Of a DNA stretch of 41,069 bases, positions 3,895-41,069 are shown one piece after another. The notes beneath the pieces are model-generated. The model made no database searches and was not told the DNA's origin. It saw only the letters and a program-made list of their open reading frames with translations. Every line of letters starts with the position of its first letter. Position 1 is the first letter of the stretch. A program made the translations under genes and the position numbers. Location: positions 16,150 through 57,218 of the forward strand of contig MFAE01000008.1 in the NCBI GenBank assembly GCA_001774495.1, in the 5' to 3' direction. Source of the DNA: Candidatus Campbellbacteria bacterium RIFOXYC2_FULL_35_25. GTDB taxonomy: Bacteria > Patescibacteriota > Minisyncoccia > Phycocordibacterales > UBA12079.

Positions 3895-5106
3895 ATGCCC
3901 GTATTTAAATATAAAGCAATAAAAGAAACAGGGGAGGTTTACAATAGCTCAACCGGTGCAAAAGACGAGGAGGAGCTGAAAAAGATAATAAGAGATCAAG
4001 GAGGGTCACTTATTAGTTGTGAGAAGGGGATGGGAGGATGGGGTTCCCTTAAAAATATTTCTTTTGGGGGTTCTGTAAAAATGCAGGACAAAATTATATT
4101 TGCGAAAAATTTAGCGGCTATGATTAGTGCGGGGCTTTCTGTTTCAAAATCATTAACTACTTTAGAAAAACAATTTAAAAATCCATTATTTAAAAAAGTC
4201 ATAGGCGAGATAAATGTAAAGATTAAAGGGGGGCAAACTATAGGTGCTTCAATGAAAGATCATCCAAAAGTTTTTTCTCCACTATTTGTTTCTATGGTAA
4301 GGGCGGGAGAGGAAAGCGGAAATATTTCAAATTCTTTAATGATTGTTTGCGAACAAATGGAAAATTCTTATGCTTTAAAAAAAAGAGTGAAGGGGGCATT
4401 AATTTATCCAACAATAATCTTCATTGTTATGATGATTATTGGAGTGTTGATGCTTATTTTTATAGTACCAACTCTTCAGGCTACTTTTGCTGATTTAGGG
4501 ACCGATTTACCGTTTAGTACTCAGATTATAATTTCTACTAGTGATCTTTTAAAGAATCATTCGATTCTTTTTATTGCTATTGTTTTTGCTATTGTTTTTC
4601 TTATTATTCTTGCTTTTAAAACCAAAAAAGGTCAGAGAATTATTGATATCATATCTTTGAAAACTCCCATGATTTCTTCTATTACCAAAGAGATAAATTC
4701 TGCTTATACCGCGAGGACATTATCTTCCCTTCTTTCTTCGGGGGTTGATGTTTTAAGTGCTTTTGAGATTACTGAAGATGTTTTGCAGAATTCATTTTAT
4801 AAAGAGGTTCTCGGAAAAGCGAGGGAGGGAATTCAAAAAGGAGATCCTGTGGCGGATGTTTTTCTTAAGAATGAAGACTTGTTTCCTCCGATTGTTAGTG
4901 CCATGGTTGAGGTTGGAGAAGAAACTGGAAAATTACCAACCATGCTTCTAAGTGTGGCAGATTTTTACGAAAAAGAAGTTGCCCAAAAAACAAAAAACAT
5001 GTCAGTAATCATTGAACCTGTTTTAATGGTGTTTATTGGTTTGGCTGTTGGCTTTTTTGCGGTTTCTATGATTACCCCAATGTATTCGGTAATGGCGAAT
5101 ATATAA
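3895..5106 (+). CDS. pilC: Type IV pilus platform protein, GspF/PilC family
   Basis: MPVFKYKA start, AGEESG, ALIYP, GEETGKL, IEP motifs; two T2SSF repeats with TM segments. Confidence 0.93.
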   Translation: MPVFKYKAIKETGEVYNSSTGAKDEEELKKIIRDQGGSLISCEKGMGGWGSLKNISFGGSVKMQDKIIFAKNLAAMISAGLSVSKSLTTLEKQFKNPLFKKVIGEINVKIKGGQTIGASMKDHPKVFSPLFVSMVRAGEESGNISNSLMIVCEQMENSYALKKRVKGALIYPTIIFIVMMIIGVLMLIFIVPTLQATFADLGTDLPFSTQIIISTSDLLKNHSILFIAIVFAIVFLIILAFKTKKGQRIIDIISLKTPMISSITKEINSAYTARTLSSLLSSGVDVLSAFEITEDVLQNSFYKEVLGKAREGIQKGDPVADVFLKNEDLFPPIVSAMVEVGEETGKLPTMLLSVADFYEKEVAQKTKNMSVIIEPVLMVFIGLAVGFFAVSMITPMYSVMANI

Positions 5107-28902: not shown

Positions 28903-29124
28903 TGTGGAGATGGGGAGAATTGGTCACGAGTCACTAAGCATATTTTTCGTGCTTCGCACTCAAATCTGCTAAGTGCTCTCGACCCCGCCTCACTGTTGCT
29001 CCTGCGTCGCAACATGTTCCGGCTTTCGATTCTCGCTCGCAAAGTACGCAGGTACTTTGCTCATCTCCACATAATATAAAAACCGCCAGCTTATTGCTGG
29101 CGGTTTTTATATTATGTGGAGATG
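28903..29124. repeat. Direct and inverted degenerate copies of the tmRNA 3' end interleaved with hairpins
   Basis: tgtggagatggggagaat at 28903; ttcgattctcgc...catctccaca at 29028-29071; 29-bp perfect inverted repeat 29062-29090/29096-29124. Confidence 0.8.
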
Positions 29125-29489
29125 GCGAGAATCGAACTCGCGTGTAAACAAGGCTTTTTAATAATTCTACATTGTTATTTTATTTTTTGTGTTTAGAGGA
29201 AATAGGTATGAAACAAACAAAACCCTACAACCTCGATCTCTTTAGTTTCGGAATTGAGTCAGAGAAAGCTTATTTCCTAGTCTGAAATTTATAGCAAACA
29301 ATCTATCTATCAAACATCAACAGATTGCCCGCCAGCTTAAGCTAAAGCTAATGCTGGAGCATAAGGAGATAAAATCGCCTTTGCTTTTTGTGACAAGTTT
29401 GCACTTATCTTTGTGAATCAGTTTTAAAAGTTAACTCAGCTTTCAATGCATATAAAAAAGTGACTTATTTATCTAAGCCGATCATCCCC
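29117..29489 (-). ncRNA. ssrA: tmRNA
   Basis: 5' GGGGATG pairs with 3' CATCTCC-A (G3:U70); T-arm GCGAG-TTCGATT-CTCGC; internal tag ORF; directly downstream of smpB. Confidence 0.93.
29337..29402 (-). other. tmRNA tag reading frame ANLSQKAKAILSPYAPALALA*
   Basis: GATAAGT-GCA resume context; hydrophobic ALALA C-terminus. Confidence 0.75.
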
Positions 29490-33391: not shown

Positions 33392-33404
33392 CAAAGTTTT
33401 TAAA

Positions 33405-33709
33405 ATGTGTGGTAGCTCAGTTGGACAAAAAGCAAATTTCTTTGCTTTTTGTCCGGTTTTTGTTGAAAGCAAAAAATTTTCGTTATCGAGCGAAGCGAGA
33501 TAGGAAATAGGAGGAAGAGTGCAGAGCTTATAATTTCAAGCGAGGACGACATAAAAATAAATAAAATAATTTTTTTGTTATTTTATTTATTTTTGTATTG
33601 TCCGAGTGATGGAATTATATCGAAGATATATCTCTGTGGTTTGCCGTTGCTTTAAATTGTTTTTAAATTAAAACAATTTAAAGAGGTTCGAGTCCTGGCG
33701 CGCGCACCA
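33405..33709 (+). pseudogene. Second tRNA-Ile(UAU) copy split by three hairpin insertions
   Basis: Segments tagctcagttgg (to 33424), gagtgcagagcttata (33517-33532), ctctgtggt (33632-33640), aggttcgagtcctggcgcgcgcacca (33684-33709). Confidence 0.85.
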
Positions 33710-33817
33710 AGTTTTTAAAATTATACTTTAAGTTGTATTATTTTCTATATCATGGTTCAATTAAGTTAGAAGTATTGGGGTATTAAATAGTATTCAACCA
33801 AAAGAGGAGGATCGATT

Positions 33818-34467: not shown

Positions 34468-36609
34468 TTATTCAAAATGTACCTCAATTTTTTTTAGCTT
34501 TTCTTTTACCACTGGGTAATTTTTTAAATTAGCATCTTCTTTAATTATTTCTTGAGCTTCGGTGCGGGCGGCTTCTACCATTTTTATATTTTTTATTGCT
34601 TCCATCCCGATATCAGAAATACCCCATTGTTTTTTGCCCGACAATTCGCCTGACCCTCTGAGAAGTAAATCTTTTTCTGCTAATTCAAAACCATTTTTAG
34701 CAGACTGTAGAGCTTTTAATCTATCTAATGTTTGTTCTGCTTTTGTGTCGCTAAATACATAGCAAAAAGCTTGATGGTTACTTCGAATCACCCGACCCCT
34801 TAATTGATGGAGTTGAGCTAGCCCAAATCTTTCCGCCCCTTCAATAATTATTATTGTAGCATTGGGGACATTTACTCCAACTTCTACAACAGAGGTGGCG
34901 ACAAGAATATCGATTTCTTTATTTTCAAATTGAGACATAGTAGCTTCTTTGTCAGCTGGAGTCATCTTGCTGTGTAAGATATCAATTTCGTATTCTGGAA
35001 AAACCTCTTCCTTTAATCGTTGGGCTTCCGCTCTTACGGACTTAACTCGAAGAGCCTGAGCTTTTTCTGGGTCGGGCTCTTCTATCCTCGGGCAAATAAC
35101 ATACATTTGTCGTCCCTCTTTTAATTCTTCCCGAATAGTTTCATAAGTTTTTTCTCTCTTGGCTGGAGTAACAATTTCTGTGATAACAGACTTTCTTCCT
35201 GTTGGCATTTGGTCCAGCAAGGTTAAATCTAGGTCACCATAAATAGTCAAAGCTAATGTTCGGGGTATTGGTGTTGCTGTCATAGATAGCAGGTGGGGGA
35301 TTACTTCGCTCTTTTTTGTAATTTTCATTCTCTGGTTTGTTCCAAACTTGTGTTGCTCATCGATGATTACACAGGCGAGGTCTTTGAATACAACACCTTT
35401 TTGTATAAGAGAATGAGTCCCTATTAAGATGGGGATTTCTCCATTGGCAACCCATTTCAATAGTTGAGGGCGAGAAATACCAGTCCAGTTATTTGGGTTA
35501 GTTTTTGAGGGAAATTTTCTGCACCCACTTGAGGTTATCAATCCGATACTTATATTTTTTTCAGAAAAATATTGTATGAATGATTCAAAAAGTTGTTTAG
35601 ACAAAACTTCTGTTGGTGACATATAAGCAATTTGAAGATTTCCAAAGCTCTGTTCATTTGGCCTGGTCGTAACAACAGCATTAGAAACAGCGGCCGCCAC
35701 GGCTGTTTTTCCTGAACCAACATCACCTTCAAGTAATCGAGACATTGGATGGTTACCTCCAATATCTTTTAAGATTTGCTCGATTGATTTTTCTTGGGCC
35801 TTGGTAAGCTTGAAAGGGAAACTGTCTAATATTTTTTTAATCTCTTCTTTTGTCTTTTTTATTTTAAATGAGGGCTGTTGTTGAAATTTTTTCTTTTGAC
35901 TTTGGCGGGATAACTGAATAAAGAAAATTTCTTCGAAAGCAAATCTTTTACGAGCGGAAACAGCATCAGATTTTTTTTGCGGAGTGTGAATCCAAATCAG
36001 GGCGGTTTTCAGGGAAGGGAGGTTATATTTTTTTAAAATTTCTTGAGGGATAGGGTCAGCAATTTCATCTAAAAGGCCCGAGTTAAAAATTTTTTTGATA
36101 CTGTGGTGAATCCATTGAGAACTCACACCTCTGCTTTCTGGATAAATAGGAGAGAAAAAATGATTGTCTGATTCTTCTTTGAATATTCCCGTAGGGATAG
36201 ACTCTGTTATTTCGTATGCAGGATTGGCTAAATAGGGCTTACCTTTTCTGTCGCTGATAGTTCCGCTAAATTTAGCAAAAGTTCCTTCGGGCAACATTTT
36301 AGATATATAGGGTTGGCGAAACCAAACAGCTGGGATGGTACCCTCGCTATCTTCGAGAACCGCCTCTGTCATTGTAATCTTTTTGTAATAAGCTTTACTG
36401 GCTTTTATTTTTTTTACCTTAGCGTAGATAATGATTTTGTCTCCTATCTTTAAATCTTTTGTGTTTTTTGTTTCGTCTGTATCTCCGTGGCGAGGAGGGA
36501 AATAGTAAAGCAAATCCTCAATAGTTTTTAAACCAATTTTTTTGAGGGCTTTTTTTCGGCTATCTGCGAGGCGAGGAAAAATCTCTTCAATTTTTGAGTT
36601 TAGTTGCAT
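34468..36609 (-). CDS. recG: ATP-dependent DNA helicase RecG
   Basis: N-terminal wedge/OB region, GDVGSGKT, IIDEQH, MTATPIPRT, QLHQLRGRV. Confidence 0.96.
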   Translation of the reverse strand: MQLNSKIEEIFPRLADSRKKALKKIGLKTIEDLLYYFPPRHGDTDETKNTKDLKIGDKIIIYAKVKKIKASKAYYKKITMTEAVLEDSEGTIPAVWFRQPYISKMLPEGTFAKFSGTISDRKGKPYLANPAYEITESIPTGIFKEESDNHFFSPIYPESRGVSSQWIHHSIKKIFNSGLLDEIADPIPQEILKKYNLPSLKTALIWIHTPQKKSDAVSARKRFAFEEIFFIQLSRQSQKKKFQQQPSFKIKKTKEEIKKILDSFPFKLTKAQEKSIEQILKDIGGNHPMSRLLEGDVGSGKTAVAAAVSNAVVTTRPNEQSFGNLQIAYMSPTEVLSKQLFESFIQYFSEKNISIGLITSSGCRKFPSKTNPNNWTGISRPQLLKWVANGEIPILIGTHSLIQKGVVFKDLACVIIDEQHKFGTNQRMKITKKSEVIPHLLSMTATPIPRTLALTIYGDLDLTLLDQMPTGRKSVITEIVTPAKREKTYETIREELKEGRQMYVICPRIEEPDPEKAQALRVKSVRAEAQRLKEEVFPEYEIDILHSKMTPADKEATMSQFENKEIDILVATSVVEVGVNVPNATIIIIEGAERFGLAQLHQLRGRVIRSNHQAFCYVFSDTKAEQTLDRLKALQSAKNGFELAEKDLLLRGSGELSGKKQWGISDIGMEAIKNIKMVEAARTEAQEIIKEDANLKNYPVVKEKLKKIEVHFE

Positions 36610-36782
36610 ATAGAGAAGTATAAAGTCTCTAAAGTTGAAAGTCTATAATTTGATAAGATTAAATAAGTTTGTGTCCGAATATTCAAGTATGTTATATTAT
36701 AGAGATAATAAACAGGATGAGAAGATTTGTTGTCGGAAATTTTCTTGATGGTTTAATTTTAAAATTTAATTTACATATAAAT

Positions 36783-37463
36783 ATGCAACAAAAAACATTA
36801 ATACCAATAGTTATAGGAGTTCTTATAATTTTTGCCGGAACTTGGTTTTATTTATCTGGTGGAGATAATAAAGAGTCAAAAACCGCTTCAGATTCAATCG
36901 ATATTTTAGCTCAAGTAAATGGTGAGGAGATAAACAAAGAAGCTTTCGAGACAGCCAAGGCTCAATTTATTACCACCCAAAACATTGAAGTGGCGTCTCT
37001 TGACGAAGAAACCCTTAACCAACTAAATACACAAGTTCTTGATTCTCTTATCAATAATTCTCTAGTTCAGCAAGCTACTAAAGAAAGTAAGGTGAAGGTA
37101 TCAGATGAAGATGTCGACGCACAGATAGATCTTATAAAGAGTCAATTTGAAGATGAGGCAGCTTTTCTGAAAGTTCTTTCAGAACAAGGTATTTCAGAAA
37201 CAGAATTGCGTTCTCAGGTTGTTTTGGACATTGCCGCACAAACATATTTGGAGTCAGTACTTGATCTCGATTCAATCACCGTAACTGAAGAAGAAGTTGA
37301 TGCTTTGTATAAACAAGAAGCTTCTGTTGATAAAGATTTGCCGGCTCTTTCCGAAATCAAAGGTCAAATAGAAGCATTTATTGTTCAACAAAAACAACAA
37401 GAATTATTTTCCCTGCATATTCAAAAGTTACGAGAGGATGCTGATATAGAAATCTTAAATTAA
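36783..37463 (+). CDS. SurA N-terminal-domain chaperone, membrane anchored
   Basis: N-terminal TM; LAQVNGEEI, LDSLINNSLV.Q, VSDEDVDAQI SurA_N-type pattern. Confidence 0.8.
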   Translation: MQQKTLIPIVIGVLIIFAGTWFYLSGGDNKESKTASDSIDILAQVNGEEINKEAFETAKAQFITTQNIEVASLDEETLNQLNTQVLDSLINNSLVQQATKESKVKVSDEDVDAQIDLIKSQFEDEAAFLKVLSEQGISETELRSQVVLDIAAQTYLESVLDLDSITVTEEEVDALYKQEASVDKDLPALSEIKGQIEAFIVQQKQQELFSLHIQKLREDADIEILN

Positions 37464-37473
37464 GAAAAGATTA

Positions 37474-37509
37474 AATAAAAAATACCAACGCAAGTTGGTA
37501 TTTTTTATT
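37474..37509. terminator. Bidirectional terminator
   Basis: AATAAAAAATACCAAC-GCAA-GTTGGTATTTTTTATT. Confidence 0.8.
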
Positions 37510-38070
37510 GTGCGGAGAGGGAGGGATTTGACCTCCCAGTTCTAAGTTCGGACTTCGCCTTTCGGATTGCAAAGTTTGGAGGGATTTGGTCACAAAGTTT
37601 AGGTTTCGATGGGGAGGGATTTGACCTCCCAGTTCTAATTTCAGACTTCGCCCCTTCGGGACTCGTCTTCACTAAGAACTCGTAGGCTCGTCGCTCAAAT
37701 TTTTCTTTCGCTTCGCTACAGAAAAATATATTCGCTCTTGTTCAAATCCCTCCCTCACTTTAACAGCGACACAAAATAAAAACACTGCTTTGGCAGTGTT
37801 TTTATTTTGGTCGTGCGGAGAGATTGTCCACTTCGCTCGAACCTATTTTGAAAAGCAATCGCGAAGCGATTGAAGTTTAAATCTTACGCTCCGAGCAAAA
37901 GATAATTTCAAACCATAACTTACGCTCGACTAAATCGGAAGTTTGAAACAAACGAAACGACTTGTCGTTTCCACTTCGTTCCAACGACAACCAACTCCAA
38001 AAAAAATTCTTTTCCTTTTCTCTAAAAAATTTTGGGGGGCGAAAAAAGAAAGGAAAAAACGCAAAGAAAT

Positions 38071-38252
38071 TTTTTTGGGTTGGTTTCTGCTCATACTTCA
38101 CAGAAAGTCGTTTCTTAGTCGGATGTTTTAGATTCATTTTGTTTTCGTCGCTCGCTCTGTTGTAAAAAACACATTGCCTTTGGCAATGTGTTTTTTACAA
38201 CTCGCTCTCTCACGAAAACAAAACGAAACTAAAACGCTATTTATCTTGTGTT
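38071..38252. repeat. 182-bp direct repeat, copy 1 (nested hairpin)
   Basis: Identical to 39501-39681 except for one deleted C. Confidence 0.95.
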
Positions 38253-38378
38253 GTCTTTATTGAAATATAAAAATTTTTATTGAAAAAACAAGAAGATTAT
38301 GGAATAATAACAAAACTGAGTGGTGGTCACTCAGTAGTATTTTTTTAAAGTTCTTTTAAAACATTATGAGGTGGTAAC

Positions 38379-38954
38379 ATGCAAGTAGCTCAAGCTCAAA
38401 ATTTTGTTCCTCAAGTAAAAACCGTTCAGTTGTTTGATACCAAACAACAACCAACTCTCGGTCGAGAAATCATCCCAGCGGTTCATGGCGAGTATTATGG
38501 CTATTCTTCTGTATTTACAAGAGAAAGGCCCCTTTATGCACTAATGAAGTGTAAATCCAACAAAGATCGACCTGTAAGCGAGATTGTTGATTTAGGTTTA
38601 GAAGCTAATGCCTTCTTCCGGTTTAATGAGACGGATCAAAAGATCATCTCGATAAAAACAGCAAATAATCTCGGCTTACTACAGAGAGGAAAGACAAAAA
38701 TCGATTTTGATGACATCTGGTTCGCCCCAACTAACCTTACAGCCAAGCAATTTATGAAATTGCAGGCTAATAAAAACGAAAAAGAGTTGGTAAACTTATG
38801 CCAAAAAATACTTATCAACGGTCGTGATGCCGTTGAACTTCGCAAAGGATTGGTTGTGACGATGATGACCAGTAGTGAAAAATACGGCATGTTTTTGGTG
38901 AGCAAAATTACACCATTCTCAATTCAAATTGAGGCATGTCACATTTTGCTTTGA
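38379..38954 (+). CDS. Hypothetical protein (191 aa), cassette gene with SD
   Basis: GAGGTG before ATG; terminator ACACCACAGGA/TCCTGTGGTGT at 38976-39002. Confidence 0.75.
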   Translation: MQVAQAQNFVPQVKTVQLFDTKQQPTLGREIIPAVHGEYYGYSSVFTRERPLYALMKCKSNKDRPVSEIVDLGLEANAFFRFNETDQKIISIKTANNLGLLQRGKTKIDFDDIWFAPTNLTAKQFMKLQANKNEKELVNLCQKILINGRDAVELRKGLVVTMMTSSEKYGMFLVSKITPFSIQIEACHILL

Positions 38955-39038
38955 TACCTCAAACCTCAACCCGACACACCACAGGAACGAATCCTGTGGT
39001 GTTTTTTATTGTTTTATGTCATTATCTTTATTATCAAT

Positions 39039-39491
39039 ATGGAAATAAGAAATTATAATAAAAAAGATAAAGTTGCTGTGCAACATATTTTTGCTAAATA
39101 TTGGACAGATAGAGAATTTTTAGATGAGCTTGAGAAAAATTTGGACGGGGGCGAAGTTTATTTTTACGTTGCTGAAAAATACGACGAAATAATCGGTGTT
39201 GCAGGTTTTAGAAAAGCTCCAAAATATCTTCGTGATTATGCAGAAACAGAAAATCCTGTGGAGTTGTATATAATAGCTTCTAAAGAGAAAAACAAAGGTT
39301 TTGGAAACACTCTTGCACAAAAAATTATTGAAAAAGCAAAAAAAATGAATTTTACAGAAATAGAGTGTTATAGCCCCGAGACTCACAATAGTTCGTGGAA
39401 ATTTTATGAGAAGCTTGGATTTAAAAAGCACGGAATTATTAACGATCCAGATGATGGATACCCCGGAATGCTTTGGAGGAAAGTTTTGTAA
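39039..39491 (+). CDS. GNAT family N-acetyltransferase
   Basis: IRNY start, IIGVAG, KNKGFGNTL, KFYEKLGF. Confidence 0.88.
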   Translation: MEIRNYNKKDKVAVQHIFAKYWTDREFLDELEKNLDGGEVYFYVAEKYDEIIGVAGFRKAPKYLRDYAETENPVELYIIASKEKNKGFGNTLAQKIIEKAKKMNFTEIECYSPETHNSSWKFYEKLGFKKHGIINDPDDGYPGMLWRKVL

Positions 39492-39500
39492 GGAAAAGAA

Positions 39501-39681
39501 TTTTTTGGGTTGGTTTCTGCTCATACTTCACAGAAAGTCGTTTCTTAGTCGGATGTTTTAGATTCATTTTGTTTTCGTCGCTCGCTCTGTTGTAAAAAAC
39601 ACATTGCCTTTGGCAATGTGTTTTTTACAACTCGCTCTCTCACGAAAACAAAAGAAACTAAAACGCTATTTATCTTGTGTT
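39501..39681. repeat. 181-bp direct repeat, copy 2
   Basis: Begins 10 nt after the GNAT stop. Confidence 0.95.
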
Positions 39682-39810
39682 TGCCCCAACCCTCCCAGCG
39701 CACACAAAAAAGCTCCCAAACAGACAAAAACCACACTTCGTGTGGTTTTGTATGATAAAAGGGACAAATGGTGTATTTGTCCCTTTTAGCTTTGTGGAGA
39801 TTTGATATTT

Positions 39811-39963
39811 TTATGGTTTTTTGATGTATTTTACACCCCTACCAGCATTTCCAACTTGAATTATCTTTTGCTCTTTTTCAAGAATATTTAAGTATCTTGT
39901 TGCACTTCTTTTAGTAGTTCGTAGCAATTCTTGAACATCCGAGTTTGAAATATTTGGATTTGA
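39811..39963 (-). pseudogene. 3' fragment of a gene ending in a DeoR-like winged HTH
   Basis: SNPNISNSDVQELLRTTKRSATRYLNILEKEQKIIQVGNAGRGVKYIKKP*; no start codon; begins at TCAAATCC. Confidence 0.65.
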
Positions 39964-40140
39964 CCTCCCAGTTCTAAGTTCGGACTTCGCCCTACAGGCT
40001 CGCCCTCATTAAGAACTCGTAGGCTCGGCGTTCGTATTTTTCTTTCAGAAAAATATACTCACCCTTGTTCAAATCCCGACCTCTCTACCGTCAAGACATC
40101 AATATTCAAATACCTTAATCGGTATTTGAAATTGCTGTTG

Positions 40141-40227
40141 CGGAGAGGGAGGGATTTGAACCCTCGGAGGCTTTTACACCTCGGCACGTTAGCAGTGTGC
40201 TGGTTTAAACCACTCACCCACCTCTCC
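40141..40227 (-). tRNA. tRNA-Ser(GCU)
   Basis: GGAGAGG/CCTCTCC acceptor, CT[GCT]AA loop, long variable arm GAGG/CCTC, GAGGG-TTCAAAT-CCCTC T-arm; 87 nt; A31.C39 mismatch; CCA not encoded. Confidence 0.92.
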
Positions 40228-40252
40228 GTGTGTTCGTCAAATTATATTTTTA

Positions 40253-40476
40253 GGGAGGGATTTGGTCACAAATAATTTTTCTTTGAAAAATTTTCGCGAC
40301 CCCGACTCGTCTGTCTCGCTTCGCTCGACATAACTCCGTCCCTTGATTTCAGACAGAAAACAAAGCAGTTTGCTTTCTTTTCTGATAAATATTTTTTATA
40401 AAAGATAAAAAATATTTATCAGAACTTAAATCAAGCCTCGGCACGTTAGCAGTGTGCTGGTTTCACCCACCTCTCC
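40253..40476 (-). pseudogene. Upstream tRNA-Ser(GCU) copy with a D-loop deletion and hairpin insertions
   Basis: ggagaggtgggtga[delta gtggttta]aaccagcacactgctaacgtgccgagg retained; then inserts; aaatccctccc at 40253-40263. Confidence 0.85.
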
Positions 40477-40656
40477 GTATATTTATATTATACTCTCAAT
40501 CTGCCCCTTCATATTTATTTGACCTCCCATAAAATAACATATTTTACTATTAAAATCCATAAGTTTTAGACAAAAAACACATAAACAGAGAAACAAAAAC
40601 AACGAACGGCTCCGCCGTTCGTTGTTTTTGCTGTTAGCTGTCAGCTGTAGGCTTTT

Positions 40657-41069
40657 TCAATGCGCCACCGTTATTACAAATATCTTTTTTGCACCATACC
40701 TCTTGAGGGTTTTGCTCGCTTCTTTAATTGTTGCTCCTGTGGTTGTAACATCATCAAGTAAAATTATATTTCTTTTTCTGATTTCGTGCGGATTTCTTAC
40801 TGTAAAGCAATTCTTCAAATTGTTTAATCTTTCTTTTTTATTTTTCGAGCGGGATTGAGGTGGAGTATTTTTTATTTTTATTAAAATATTTTTTTTAAAA
40901 ATAAAAGAAGAATTATTATCTAGCAAACTCATTTCTTCAGCAATTAATTCAGATTGGTTAAACCCTCTTTCCCTGAGGCGGGACTTTGAAAGGGGAATGG
41001 GGATAAGGATTGGGTCTGCGAAGTTTGAGAAGGTTTGTAAATCCGACATTTTTTCCAACAGGCGGTCGT
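40657..41069 (-). CDS. comF: ComF family phosphoribosyltransferase-like protein, 5' partial
   Basis: PIPLSKSRLRERGFNQSELIA, ILLDDVTTTGAT; frame is open to the window edge. Confidence 0.88.
   Translation of the reverse strand, partial: DRLLEKMSDLQTFSNFADPILIPIPLSKSRLRERGFNQSELIAEEMSLLDNNSSFIFKKNILIKIKNTPPQSRSKNKKERLNNLKNCFTVRNPHEIRKRNIILLDDVTTTGATIKEASKTLKRYGAKKIFVITVAH

What the first reader, a model, noticed from the sequence alone, without database searches (positions are those of the whole stretch)
37511..40159. Integrase-less tRNA-Ser island with stacked att-like scars
Seen: a 21-bp direct repeat of the tRNA-Ser 3' end bounds 2.6 kb. Further partial copies lie at 37578, 37612, 37814 and 39956, and inverted ones at 37741 and 40068. 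A 36-bp block (ggatttgacctcccagttctaagttcggacttcgcc) is identical at 37524 and 39956, and 37612-37750 is homologous to 39956-40077. Established: tRNA 3' ends are common integration sites. Inference: repeated gain and loss of small cargo, mobilised in trans.
Basis: partly seen in the sequence, partly recalled or inferred. Interest (0 to 1): 0.65.

Follow-up and report, generated by a model that had tools for sequence, protein, structure and literature searches.

The report
Decayed tRNA-Ser insertion stack, cargo remnant
Behind the only tRNA-Ser(GCT) gene of a tiny groundwater bacterium lies 2.6 kb of piled-up insertions: small folded, protein-free elements that copy the tRNA's own 3' end, the leftover half of a larger mobile island, and a two-gene cassette. 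This makes it a worked example of an apparently undescribed way in which tRNA genes are colonised in these bacteria.

Summary
The 21-nt tRNA-Ser 3'-end copy is exact at 37511 and 40139, occurs nowhere else in the 782-kb genome, and is not expected by chance. All partial and inverted copies and the 36-bp block are present as described.

The "scars" are not classical att remnants. They are the arms of about 150-nt structured, protein-free units. About 24 of the genome's 39 tRNA genes, and the tmRNA, carry such copies of their own 3' end. A unit is: hairpin, inverted copy of the tRNA 3' end, covarying three-way-junction core, direct copy starting in the T-loop.

This locus holds two units, two unit fragments, one unit upstream next to a pseudo-tRNA, the distal half of an island, and a duplicated 190-bp repeat around two genes. 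In relatives the island is flanked by 262-nt perfect inverted repeats and abuts a large serine recombinase gene.

Relatives show gain and loss:
- empty tRNA-Ser site (G001, G012)
- one unit (G013)
- a different 1.1-kb insert (G005)
- cassette absent (G001, G002) or present (G004)

The island's recombinase half was deleted at a T-loop-like heptamer. The enzyme that moves the units is unknown.

The parts
37474..37509 (.). Terminator palindrome at the end of the SurA-like gene (36669-37463). It lies directly after the displaced tRNA 3' end and is the likely ancestral terminator shared with tRNA-Ser.
   Evidence: 16-nt perfect arms (I22). Pfam SurA_N_3 for the gene.
37511..37531 (-). Distal direct copy of the last 21 nt of tRNA-Ser (T-loop position about 55 to the 3' end). 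Read as the original 3' end, displaced by the insertions.
   Evidence: Exact; 2 copies in the genome.
37532..37559 (-). Fragment A: the last 28 nt of a type-1 unit core, attached to the 21-nt copy. 37524-37559 is identical to 39956-39991.
   Evidence: D2; nhmmer hit at model positions 100-151.
37578..37596 (-). Fragment of a type-2 unit: core 3' end TTTGTGACC plus 10 nt of direct arm AAATCCCTCC. It is identical to 40254-40272.
   Evidence: D3. The same ...GTGACC|arm junction occurs after tRNA-Ala, Gly, Phe and the tmRNA.
37612..37759 (-). Unit B, a complete type-1 unit: direct arm 37612-37624, core 37625-37739, inverted arm 37740-37759.
   Evidence: nhmmer E = 3e-42. RNA fold of the tRNA-sense strand -55.9 kcal/mol, z = -6.8. 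Member of alignment A1.
37772..37809 (.). Terminator palindrome in front of unit B. It is orthologous to the palindromes in G002c17 and G005, with compensatory changes.
   Evidence: I17.
37814..38087 (-). Module M9, read on the minus (tRNA-sense) strand. Its outer end reads GGTTCGAGCGAAGTGGACAAT-CTCTCCGCA, a tRNA-Ser-like 3' end. In G002c17 the same module is the 262-nt perfect terminal inverted repeat of a 7.6-kb island.
   Evidence: 88% to G002c17 1770-2031 and 92% to G001c25. Inverted repeat 100% complementary. Partial copies at C14:24549-24911 behind tRNA-Ala.
38063..38252 (.). Left copy of the 190-bp direct repeat. It contains a roughly 110-nt palindrome.
   Evidence: 98% to 39494-39681. 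One collapsed contig at 2x depth.
38379..38954 (+). ORF of 191 aa: a conserved hypothetical protein of Parcubacteria, with no Pfam family.
   Evidence: 65 homologues, best 68% identity. No Pfam hit.
39039..39491 (+). GNAT acetyltransferase, 150 aa. It is paired with the 191-aa ORF in other Parcubacteria as well.
   Evidence: Pfam Acetyltransf_1, 1.3e-13. The same gene pair occurs in a Campbellbacteria contig.
39494..39681 (.). Right copy of the 190-bp repeat. This is the copy that continues into the island backbone, as in G001c114, G002c17 and C14.
39682..39803 (-). Backbone segment 'T' with two terminator-like hairpins. It is paralogous to C14:33453-33610.
   Evidence: 94% identity. Colinear in G001c114, G002c17 and G007c32.
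39811..39955 (-). Last 47 codons plus the stop codon of a winged-helix gene, the 3' fragment of a 223-aa gene that is intact at C14:30636-31307 and G002c17:8135-8806. Its truncation joint with unit C lies inside GATTTGA, which is the T-loop heptamer TCAAATC.
   Evidence: 95% to C14:31155-31307. Joint read directly. Full-length genes. Weak HTH_69 hit.
39956..40089 (-). Unit C, type 1, next to the tRNA: inverted arm 40067-40089 (2 mismatches), core 39964-40066, direct arm cut down to 8 nt (39956-39963).
   Evidence: nhmmer E = 3e-39. Fold -43.4 kcal/mol, z = -3.2. The joint is spanned by contigs of runs X2 and X6.
40098..40124 (.). Hairpin between tRNA-Ser and unit C. It is homologous to the hairpin behind tRNA-Ser(GCT) in G011 and G013.
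   Evidence: Read directly; compared.
40140..40227 (-). tRNA-Ser(GCT), the only gene for this anticodon in the genome.
   Evidence: ARAGORN and Rfam, 53.8 bits.
40252..40435 (-). Type-2 unit upstream of the tRNA: palindrome 40370-40434, core, then direct arm AAATCCCTCCCT at 40252-40263.
   Evidence: Matches to the units behind tRNA-Ala, Glu and Arg. Fold -45.2 kcal/mol, z = -4.9. Conserved in G001 and G005.
40436..40478 (-). Pseudo-tRNA-Ser: a 5' half with an 8-nt D-arm deletion, cut off in the variable arm. In G001 and G005 the orthologous copy carries a D-loop insertion and breaks at or before the T-loop.
   Evidence: 84% to 40179-40229.

Best explanation
The 2.6 kb between the two 21-nt copies is a nested and now largely decayed pile of insertions into the 3' end of the single tRNA-Ser(GCT) gene of a Parcubacteria-type (CPR) bacterium.

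The basic building block is a protein-free unit of about 150 nt. On the tRNA-sense strand it folds into a three-way junction. The junction is closed by an inverted copy and a direct copy of the host tRNA's own 3' end.

Each unit lies as if it had entered at T-loop position 55/56. It brings a replacement 3' end plus a hairpin and pushes the previous 3' end downstream. Repeated entry stacks the units, and later deletions leave only 'core 3' end + direct arm' stubs.

At this locus the stack holds unit C (next to the tRNA), unit B, a type-2 stub and a type-1 stub. The stack ends in the original 3' end (37511-37531) and its terminator.

Between units C and B lies the distal half of a larger island: a winged-helix gene 3' end, backbone segment T, the 190-bp repeat and the M9 end. 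In relatives this island is bounded by 262-nt inverted repeats and adjoins a large serine recombinase gene next to a tRNA. Here its recombinase-proximal half was deleted, with the joint in a T-loop-like heptamer.

A two-gene cassette (191-aa ORF and GNAT) later entered the island remnant together with a second copy of the 190-bp repeat, most simply by homologous recombination with a related island.

Shown: the anatomy, the fold with covariation, the genome-wide pattern, and the presence/absence differences among relatives.

Inferred: insertion at the T-loop as the mechanism, the order of events, and a trans-acting enzyme that has not been identified.
For: 1. Genome-wide pattern. About 24 of 39 tRNA genes have a direct copy of their own 3' end, mostly about 160-410 nt downstream, and/or an inverted copy, mostly about 48-60 nt downstream. 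So does the tmRNA in this window.
2. The arms differ from unit to unit and match the neighbouring tRNA (Ser, Gly, His, Gln, Ile), while the core is shared.
3. The structure is real. Of 41 predicted pairs, 25 show compensatory changes. 94.2% of cells are paired, against 34-53% when partners are slid, and 0 of 500 shuffles reach this.
4. The tRNA-sense strand is the structured one. G-T wobbles outnumber A-C 22 to 7 overall and 11 to 2 in core helices. That strand folds 11-13 kcal/mol better than the other for all three units tested.
5. Occupancy differs at the orthologous tRNA-Ser(GCT). G001 and G012 are empty. G013 has one type-2 unit with its direct copy at +164. G005 has a 1.12-kb insert (one ORF plus a type-2 unit) ending in the direct copy. 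After that copy comes the same flank that follows the tRNA in G001, with about 110 nt alignable.
6. In G005 the distal copy reads ...CCGCA|G, like the empty G001 allele, while the proximal copy reads ...CCGCC|A. This is as expected if the insert supplied the proximal 3' end.
7. The island remnant is colinear with G002c17, G001c114 and G007c32. In G002c17 it has 262-nt perfect inverted repeats. The serine recombinase gene lies just outside one repeat in G002 and G007, with a conserved spacer.
8. The deletion joint lies in GATTTGA; the intact paralogue on C14 has GAATTTGATTC at that point.
9. Cassette polymorphism. The gene pair is conserved elsewhere.
10. Independent contigs support the assembly.
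Against: - No excision or insertion intermediate was seen. The one 'empty-site' joint, in run X4, rests on only 23 nt and probably comes from another organism's tRNA-Ser.
- The locus looks fixed in all four runs that hold it.
- The two units and the stubs are partly degenerate, so nothing here need be active now.
- At tRNA-Ser(GCT) the hairpin and inverted arm are homologous in G000, G011 and G013, but the cores are of three types. The same holds for unit B against the G005 unit. This needs either core swapping or differential deletion within old stacks. It is not predicted by simple whole-unit insertion.
- Stub A is 100% identical to unit C over 36 bp, while unit B differs at 2 of 41 positions. 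The simple rule 'most distal is oldest' therefore fails, and a recent recombination event must be assumed.
- No candidate enzyme is found in all unit-bearing genomes. Y1 transposase-like genes are absent from G009, and the serine recombinase is absent from G003, G009, G010 and G011.
Confidence: 0.6

Rival explanations
1. One classical genomic island. The whole of 37511-40159 would be a single integrative element bounded by attL and attR. It would have lost its integrase and would still be mobilised as a unit by an integrase encoded elsewhere. The inner partial copies would be secondary att scars.
For: A perfect 21-nt direct repeat of the tRNA 3' end bounds the region. There is no recombinase inside. 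The genome does encode one large serine recombinase (C13:2080-3726) and one tyrosine recombinase.
Against: The inner copies are paired inverted and direct arms around a conserved, covarying core that recurs at many other tRNAs. They are not random scars.

The interior is a mosaic whose pieces occur separately in relatives.

The tyrosine recombinase is a single Xer-type orthologue, present once in nearly every relative.

Serine recombinases do not produce 21-nt duplications (established knowledge of their 2-bp crossover).

No circle or empty-site joint was seen in the population.
Confidence: 0.12
2. Not mobile at all. The units would be functional RNAs tied to tRNA genes, for example 3'-trailer structures that affect termination, processing or stability of the tRNA transcript. 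Their arms would be kept matched to the tRNA by selection or gene conversion. The locus would then be an intergenic region shaped by local duplication and deletion.
For: The tRNA-sense strand is favoured by wobble pairs and by fold energy. The hairpin behind tRNA-Ser lacks a T-run, so read-through into unit C is likely. The frame (hairpin plus arm) is conserved across genera. The family is widespread in the order.
Against: tRNA-Ser(GCT) does without any unit in G001, G012, G026 and G044.

Units occur as stacks, tandem copies and truncated stubs.

Unit C has lost most of its closing helix, and stubs A and the type-2 fragment cannot fold.

One core type carries arms for many different tRNAs, which needs repeated re-creation of both arms.

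No RNA data exist for this organism.
Confidence: 0.18
3. Assembly artefact. Strain variants or repeats would have been collapsed or chained by the metagenome assembler, creating false nested repeats.
For: The genome is a metagenome-assembled draft with gaps at both window ends. The contig graph breaks at every repeat.
Against: Contigs from four runs of different samples reproduce each unique junction without differences. These include the tRNA/unit C/gene-fragment joint (39900-40732) and the cassette with both repeat ends (38194-39530). Depths are even at 27-29, with the 190-bp repeat at 54.6. Relatives show the same modules in the same order.
Confidence: 0.03

Closest known systems
Genomic islands and prophages that integrate into tRNA/tmRNA genes by tyrosine integrases, T-loop sublocation (Williams 2002, Nucleic Acids Res, recalled from knowledge)
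   Same: The insertion lies at the 3' end of a tRNA gene. The duplicated segment starts in the T-loop and runs to the 3' end. The tRNA stays intact because the insert supplies a new 3' end. Empty and occupied alleles exist among relatives. Tandem stacking occurs at one tRNA.
   Different: The units are about 150 nt and encode no protein. They always carry an extra inverted copy of the tRNA 3' end that pairs with the direct copy around a conserved folded core. One core type is found with arms for many different tRNAs. There is no cognate integrase; the only tyrosine recombinase is Xer-like.
Large-serine-recombinase integrative elements
   Same: In G002, G007 and G001 the homologous island adjoins a 520-550-aa serine recombinase gene, which in G007 lies next to a tRNA. 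In G000's own copy (C13) and in G002 the end of the gene reads through an antisense tRNA-like sequence. Cargo is restriction-modification and regulator genes.
   Different: In the window the recombinase and the proximal half of the island are gone. The 262-nt perfect terminal inverted repeats (M9) are not a usual feature of such elements. The 21-nt duplication cannot come from a serine recombinase.
REP/BIME and RAYT systems, and IS200/IS605-derived palindrome-associated elements
   Same: They are small, non-coding, strongly folded repeats acted on as single strands. Target choice in IS608 uses short base pairing with a guide inside the element. Six Y1 transposase-like ORFs are present in this 0.78-Mb genome.
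   Different: The units are not flanking the Y1 genes. The arms are 13-21 nt and copy the target. Units are present in G009, where no Y1 match was found. There is no conserved tetranucleotide target.
MITEs
   Same: Short, non-coding, with inverted termini, present in many copies.
   Different: The 'terminal repeats' differ in every copy and equal the neighbouring tRNA's 3' end. There is no target-site duplication of fixed length. The location is restricted to tRNA and tmRNA 3' ends.

Membership tests
tRNA-integrating genomic island (tyrosine integrase type) | Direct repeats of the tRNA 3' part at both ends | tested here: met
   21-nt exact copy at 37511 and 40139.
tRNA-integrating genomic island (tyrosine integrase type) | Integrase gene inside the island, next to one att site | tested here: not met
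   No recombinase ORF in 37511-40159. The single PF00589 gene lies at C6:137821-138324 and is Xer-like.
tRNA-integrating genomic island (tyrosine integrase type) | Empty target site in related genomes | tested here: met
   G001 and G012 have tRNA-Ser(GCT) followed directly by flank. The G005 insert ends at the same flank. The inserts differ between genomes, so this shows site use, not mobility of this exact 2.6 kb.
tRNA-integrating genomic island (tyrosine integrase type) | Excised circle or restored site detectable in the population | tested here: inconclusive
   Only assembled contigs were available. One joint with a 23-nt side in run X4 is unreliable.
Large serine recombinase integrative element | Gene for a resolvase-domain recombinase of about 500 aa at one end | tested here: not met
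   Absent from the window locus. Present next to the homologous island in G002c17 and G007c32.
Large serine recombinase integrative element | Backbone homology to recombinase-bearing copies | tested here: met
   M9, the 190-bp repeat, segment T and the winged-helix gene are colinear with G002c17, G007c32 and G001c114 at 75-95% identity.
MITE | Element-specific terminal inverted repeats plus fixed target-site duplication | tested here: not met
   The arms equal the local tRNA 3' end and change with the tRNA. There is no fixed duplication.
REP/RAYT or IS200/IS605-derived element | Cognate Y1 (HUH) transposase present wherever the repeats are | tested here: inconclusive
   There are 6 Y1_Tnp ORFs in G000 and matches in 14 of 19 genomes. 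G009 (98% complete) has units but no Y1 match.
Known RNA families (Rfam 15) | Match to a curated covariance model | tested here: not met
   Only tRNA and tmRNA pass. Nothing credible falls on the units even at E up to 5.
Integron cassette array / CALIN | attC sites bounding single-gene cassettes, with IntI nearby or attC-model matches | not tested
   No attC model was run. The cassette holds two genes and is bounded by a 190-bp duplication, not by attC-like sites. No second tyrosine recombinase is present.

The most novel reading that the evidence does not exclude
The units could be a new kind of protein-free mobile element that finds the T-loop of any tRNA or tmRNA gene through nucleic-acid pairing. 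Both arms would be rewritten from the target at each insertion. The direct arms it leaves behind are spare tRNA 3' ends, and these could then serve as landing pads for recombinase-borne islands, sparing the essential tRNA. Here the island remnant sits exactly where unit C's direct arm should be, and its deletion joint lies in the T-loop heptamer.
Probability: 0.15. Interest if true: 0.85.

Novelty: new variant of a known kind. Interest (0 to 1): 0.62.

Why it matters
tRNA genes are the classic docking sites for mobile DNA, and until now such docking has been tied to element-encoded integrases. Here a 0.78-Mb genome devotes several kilobases to tiny folded elements that behave like integrated DNA at the T-loop but encode nothing.

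This locus shows how they pile up, decay and trap larger cargo: restriction-modification island remnants and an acetyltransferase cassette.

If the arms are templated from the target, this would be a natural, programmable, sequence-guided insertion system.

If the units are instead RNAs linked to tRNA expression, they are an unknown layer of tRNA biology in the candidate phyla radiation.

Either way, the locus gives matched empty, single-unit and stacked alleles in related genomes. These make the question testable.

Tried and rejected
- Rfam at gathering and at permissive thresholds: nothing on the units.
- Two full-text literature searches: no description of such tRNA-flank elements.
- RNA runs: none hold this organism, so transcription is untested.
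- Contig lay-down: no reliable excision joint.
- Idea that the repeats are a genome-wide dispersed family by exact sequence: rejected. The Ser-specific arms are unique to this locus; only the cores recur.
- Idea that a Y1 transposase or the serine recombinase is the universal driver: not supported by co-occurrence.
- The 128-nt repeat that flanks the recombinase gene in G002 and G007 has no copy in G000.
- Group I/II intron, integron and CRISPR readings were considered. They were dropped for lack of any model hit or matching anatomy.
- tRNA-primed reverse transcription was rejected. The arms copy the gene's trailer (…GCA-C/A…), not a CCA end.
Full report
OBSERVATION

The window is contig C8:16150-57218 of a 782-kb, 15-contig, 35% G+C genome. 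Homologues of its proteins are named Campbellbacteria, Yonathbacteria and Wolfebacteria (Parcubacteria/CPR). The runs that hold it are groundwater and soil metagenomes.

tRNA-Ser(GCT) lies at 40140-40227 on the minus strand. It is the only gene for that anticodon. The reverse complement of its last 21 nt is exact at 37511 and at 40139. It occurs nowhere else in the genome and is not expected by chance. Three were not listed: a 190-bp direct repeat around the two ORFs, a copy of the tRNA 5' half at 40436-40478, and a 19-nt exact repeat at 37578/40254.

Contigs from four independent runs tile the region without differences. The 190-bp repeat sits at twice the flank depth. The structure is therefore not an assembly artefact.

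THE REPEATS BELONG TO A GENOME-WIDE SYSTEM

I scanned all 39 tRNA genes of the genome. About 24 have a direct copy of their own 3' end, mostly about 160-410 nt downstream, and/or an inverted copy, mostly about 48-60 nt downstream.

Read on the tRNA strand, the layout is: tRNA, a hairpin or terminator palindrome, an inverted copy of the tRNA 3' end, a core of about 110 nt, and a direct copy that starts at T-loop position 55/56 and runs to the discriminator and trailer. The tmRNA of this window has the same layout.

There are several core types. Type 1 runs AAGAGCGAAG…AGAACTGGGAGG. Type 2 runs …GGCGGAG…GGGGTCGCGA…TTAGTGAYTYGTGACC. A further type enters the D-loop. The arms differ from copy to copy and match the neighbouring tRNA, while the cores are shared.

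I reached this reading before opening the scan's earlier notes. Those notes describe the same family elsewhere in this genome. I treat them as leads only.

THE UNITS ARE FOLDED, ON THE tRNA-SENSE STRAND

Fourteen type-1 units from seven genomes align to a three-way junction of 41 pairs.
- 25 pairs show compensatory changes.
- 94.2% of cells are paired, against 34-53% when the partners are slid.
- No shuffle out of 500 reaches this.

G-T wobbles outnumber A-C mismatches 22 to 7, and 11 to 2 in the core helices. For units B, C and the upstream type-2 unit, the tRNA-sense strand folds 11-13 kcal/mol better than the opposite strand. The structured species is therefore the tRNA-sense strand, as RNA or as single-stranded DNA. 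No RNA data exist for this organism.

ANATOMY OF THE LOCUS, READ FROM THE tRNA DOWNSTREAM

In order:
- tRNA-Ser (40227-40140)
- hairpin (40124-40098)
- unit C, type 1 (40089-39956), whose direct arm is cut to 8 nt
- the last 47 codons of a winged-helix gene (39955-39811)
- backbone segment T (39803-39682)
- the 190-bp repeat (39681-39494)
- a GNAT gene and a 191-aa ORF on the other strand
- the 190-bp repeat again (38252-38063)
- module M9 (38087-37814), ending in a tRNA-Ser-like 3' end …CTCTCCGCA
- CGACC plus a terminator (37809-37772)
- unit B, complete type 1 (37759-37612)
- a 19-nt type-2 stub (37596-37578)
- a type-1 stub of 28 nt joined to the full 21-nt copy (37559-37511)
- the terminator shared with the SurA-like gene

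Upstream of the tRNA lie a type-2 unit (40435-40252) and a pseudo-tRNA-Ser 5' half (40478-40436). Both are conserved in G001 and G005.

COMPARATIVE EVIDENCE FOR GAIN AND LOSS

At the orthologous tRNA-Ser(GCT):
- G001 and G012 have no unit.
- G013 has one type-2 unit, with the direct copy at +164.
- G011 has a unit of another core type.
- G005 has a 1.12-kb insert, one ORF plus a type-2 unit, ending in the direct copy.

After the G005 direct copy comes the very flank that follows the tRNA in G001, with about 110 nt alignable. In G005 the distal copy ends …CCGCA|G, like the empty G001 allele, while the proximal one ends …CCGCC|A. This fits an insert that brings the new 3' end and displaces the old one.

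G001c114 and G002c17 have a single 190-bp repeat running straight into segment T, without the cassette. G004c95 has the cassette at 96% identity. The 191-aa ORF belongs to a conserved Parcubacteria family. It is paired with the same GNAT gene in a Campbellbacteria contig.

WHY THE ISLAND HAS NO INTEGRASE

The stretch winged-helix gene / T / 190-bp repeat / M9 is colinear with G002c17, G007c32 and G001c114.

In G002c17, M9 forms 262-nt, 100% complementary inverted repeats with 7087 nt between them. That interior holds an XRE regulator, restriction-modification genes and the full 223-aa winged-helix gene. A 523-aa serine recombinase gene starts about 200 nt outside one repeat. The spacer and this layout are conserved in G007c32, where the recombinase gene lies next to tRNA-Glu, and in G001c74.

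A paralogous island sits behind tRNA-Ala on contig C14 of this genome.

In the window the proximal half has been deleted: recombinase, one M9, the cargo, and the 5' part of the winged-helix gene. The joint lies in GATTTGA, the T-loop heptamer of unit C's direct arm. The intact paralogue has GAATTTGATTC at that point.

RECOMBINASE INVENTORY

G000 has the following:
- One tyrosine recombinase. It is Xer-like, and 18 of 19 relatives carry a match to the family.
- One large serine recombinase, at C13:2080-3726. Its end reads through an antisense tRNA-like sequence.
- Six Y1 transposase-like ORFs.

Neither the serine recombinase nor the Y1 genes are present in every unit-bearing relative.

MECHANISM

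Shown:
- The duplicated segment always starts in the T-loop.
- The arms match the host tRNA.
- The core is a conserved fold.
- Occupied and empty alleles exist.
- Stubs keep the 'core 3' end + direct arm' junction.

Inferred:
- Units enter at the T-loop with a replacement 3' end.
- Repeated entry stacks them.
- Recombination between arms, which are direct repeats of one another, together with illegitimate deletion, trims the stack.

Unit C and stub A are 100% identical over 36 bp, while unit B differs at 2 of 41 positions. This suggests the block between them arrived recently, by recombination anchored in the tRNA and a resident unit. That step is inference.

The hairpin and inverted arm at tRNA-Ser(GCT) are homologous in G000, G011 and G013, yet the cores are of three types. 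Either cores are exchanged within a fixed frame, or old stacks were trimmed differently. I cannot tell which.

RIVALS

A single trans-mobilised island, a purely functional tRNA-linked RNA, and an assembly artefact are weighed in the Rival explanations section. None explains the whole pattern as well. The RNA reading keeps real weight because of the strand bias.

COMPARISON AND NOVELTY

The locus works like a tRNA T-loop integration site. It fails the membership test for integrase islands (no integrase), for MITEs (no own termini, no fixed duplication) and for Rfam families.

The island remnant is an ordinary decayed member of a serine-recombinase island type.

The units appear undescribed in the literature I could search.

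I rate the locus a new variant of a known kind. Its main value is as a dissectable example with matched alleles in relatives.

Noticed in passing
window 28905-29116 (minus strand): The tmRNA gene (29116-29489) is followed by a terminator palindrome, an inverted copy of its 3' end, a type-2 core and a direct copy AATTCTCCCCATCTCCACA. The tmRNA therefore carries the same kind of unit as the tRNAs.
   Followed up: partly
window 33393-33710: tRNA-Ile(TAT) is followed by a second, broken tRNA-Ile copy. That copy is interrupted in the D-loop by an 'ACAAAAAGC…AATAGGAGG' element and further on by other inserts. It ends in a direct copy of the tRNA 3' end plus trailer near 33685-33710.
   Followed up: partly
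G001c77 (L025) and G005 (L023), upstream of tRNA-Ser(GCT): In both relatives the orthologous pseudo-tRNA-Ser carries a D-loop insertion of about 100-140 nt. In G001 the copy breaks off exactly at the start of the T-loop. In the window the same copy has lost the D-loop element.
   Followed up: partly
G000 contig C13:2080-4300: The genome's only large serine recombinase gene ends in …WLRRQDSNLRPSD…, the translation of an antisense tRNA T-arm. It is followed by sequence resembling the reverse strand of a group I intron with an HNH gene. It probably abuts an intron-bearing tRNA that ARAGORN misses.
   Followed up: no
L040 4200-4880 (Campbellbacteria contig MFAB01000016.1): A tRNA split by an insert of about 600 nt holding an HNH endonuclease ORF (group I intron-like) lies just upstream of the homologous 193-aa ORF and GNAT pair.
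   Followed up: no
G000 contig C14:24645-24843: A roughly 200-bp element with inverted termini (GTCTGTTCAAGATTTCA…TGAAATCTTGAACAAAC) splits the M9 module behind tRNA-Ala. A similar small hairpin element splits M9 in G007c32 (4284-4360).
   Followed up: no
G000 whole genome: There are six ORFs of 228-256 aa with a Y1 (IS200/RAYT-like) transposase domain in a 0.78-Mb genome, and 3-8 per genome in the other genomes of this genus.
   Followed up: partly
window 40584-40653: A terminator-like palindrome (CAAAAACAACGAACGGC…GCCGTTCGTTGTTTTTG) with flanks recurs at C13:21366-21435, C14:775-845, C7:718-788 and C8:30442-30478.
   Followed up: no
window 34468-37463 versus G005 (L023): Gene order around the locus differs within the genus. 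In G005, recG and the SurA-like gene lie upstream of the pseudo-tRNA and run in the tRNA's direction. In the window they lie downstream and the SurA-like gene is inverted. The locus is therefore also a rearrangement breakpoint.
   Followed up: partly
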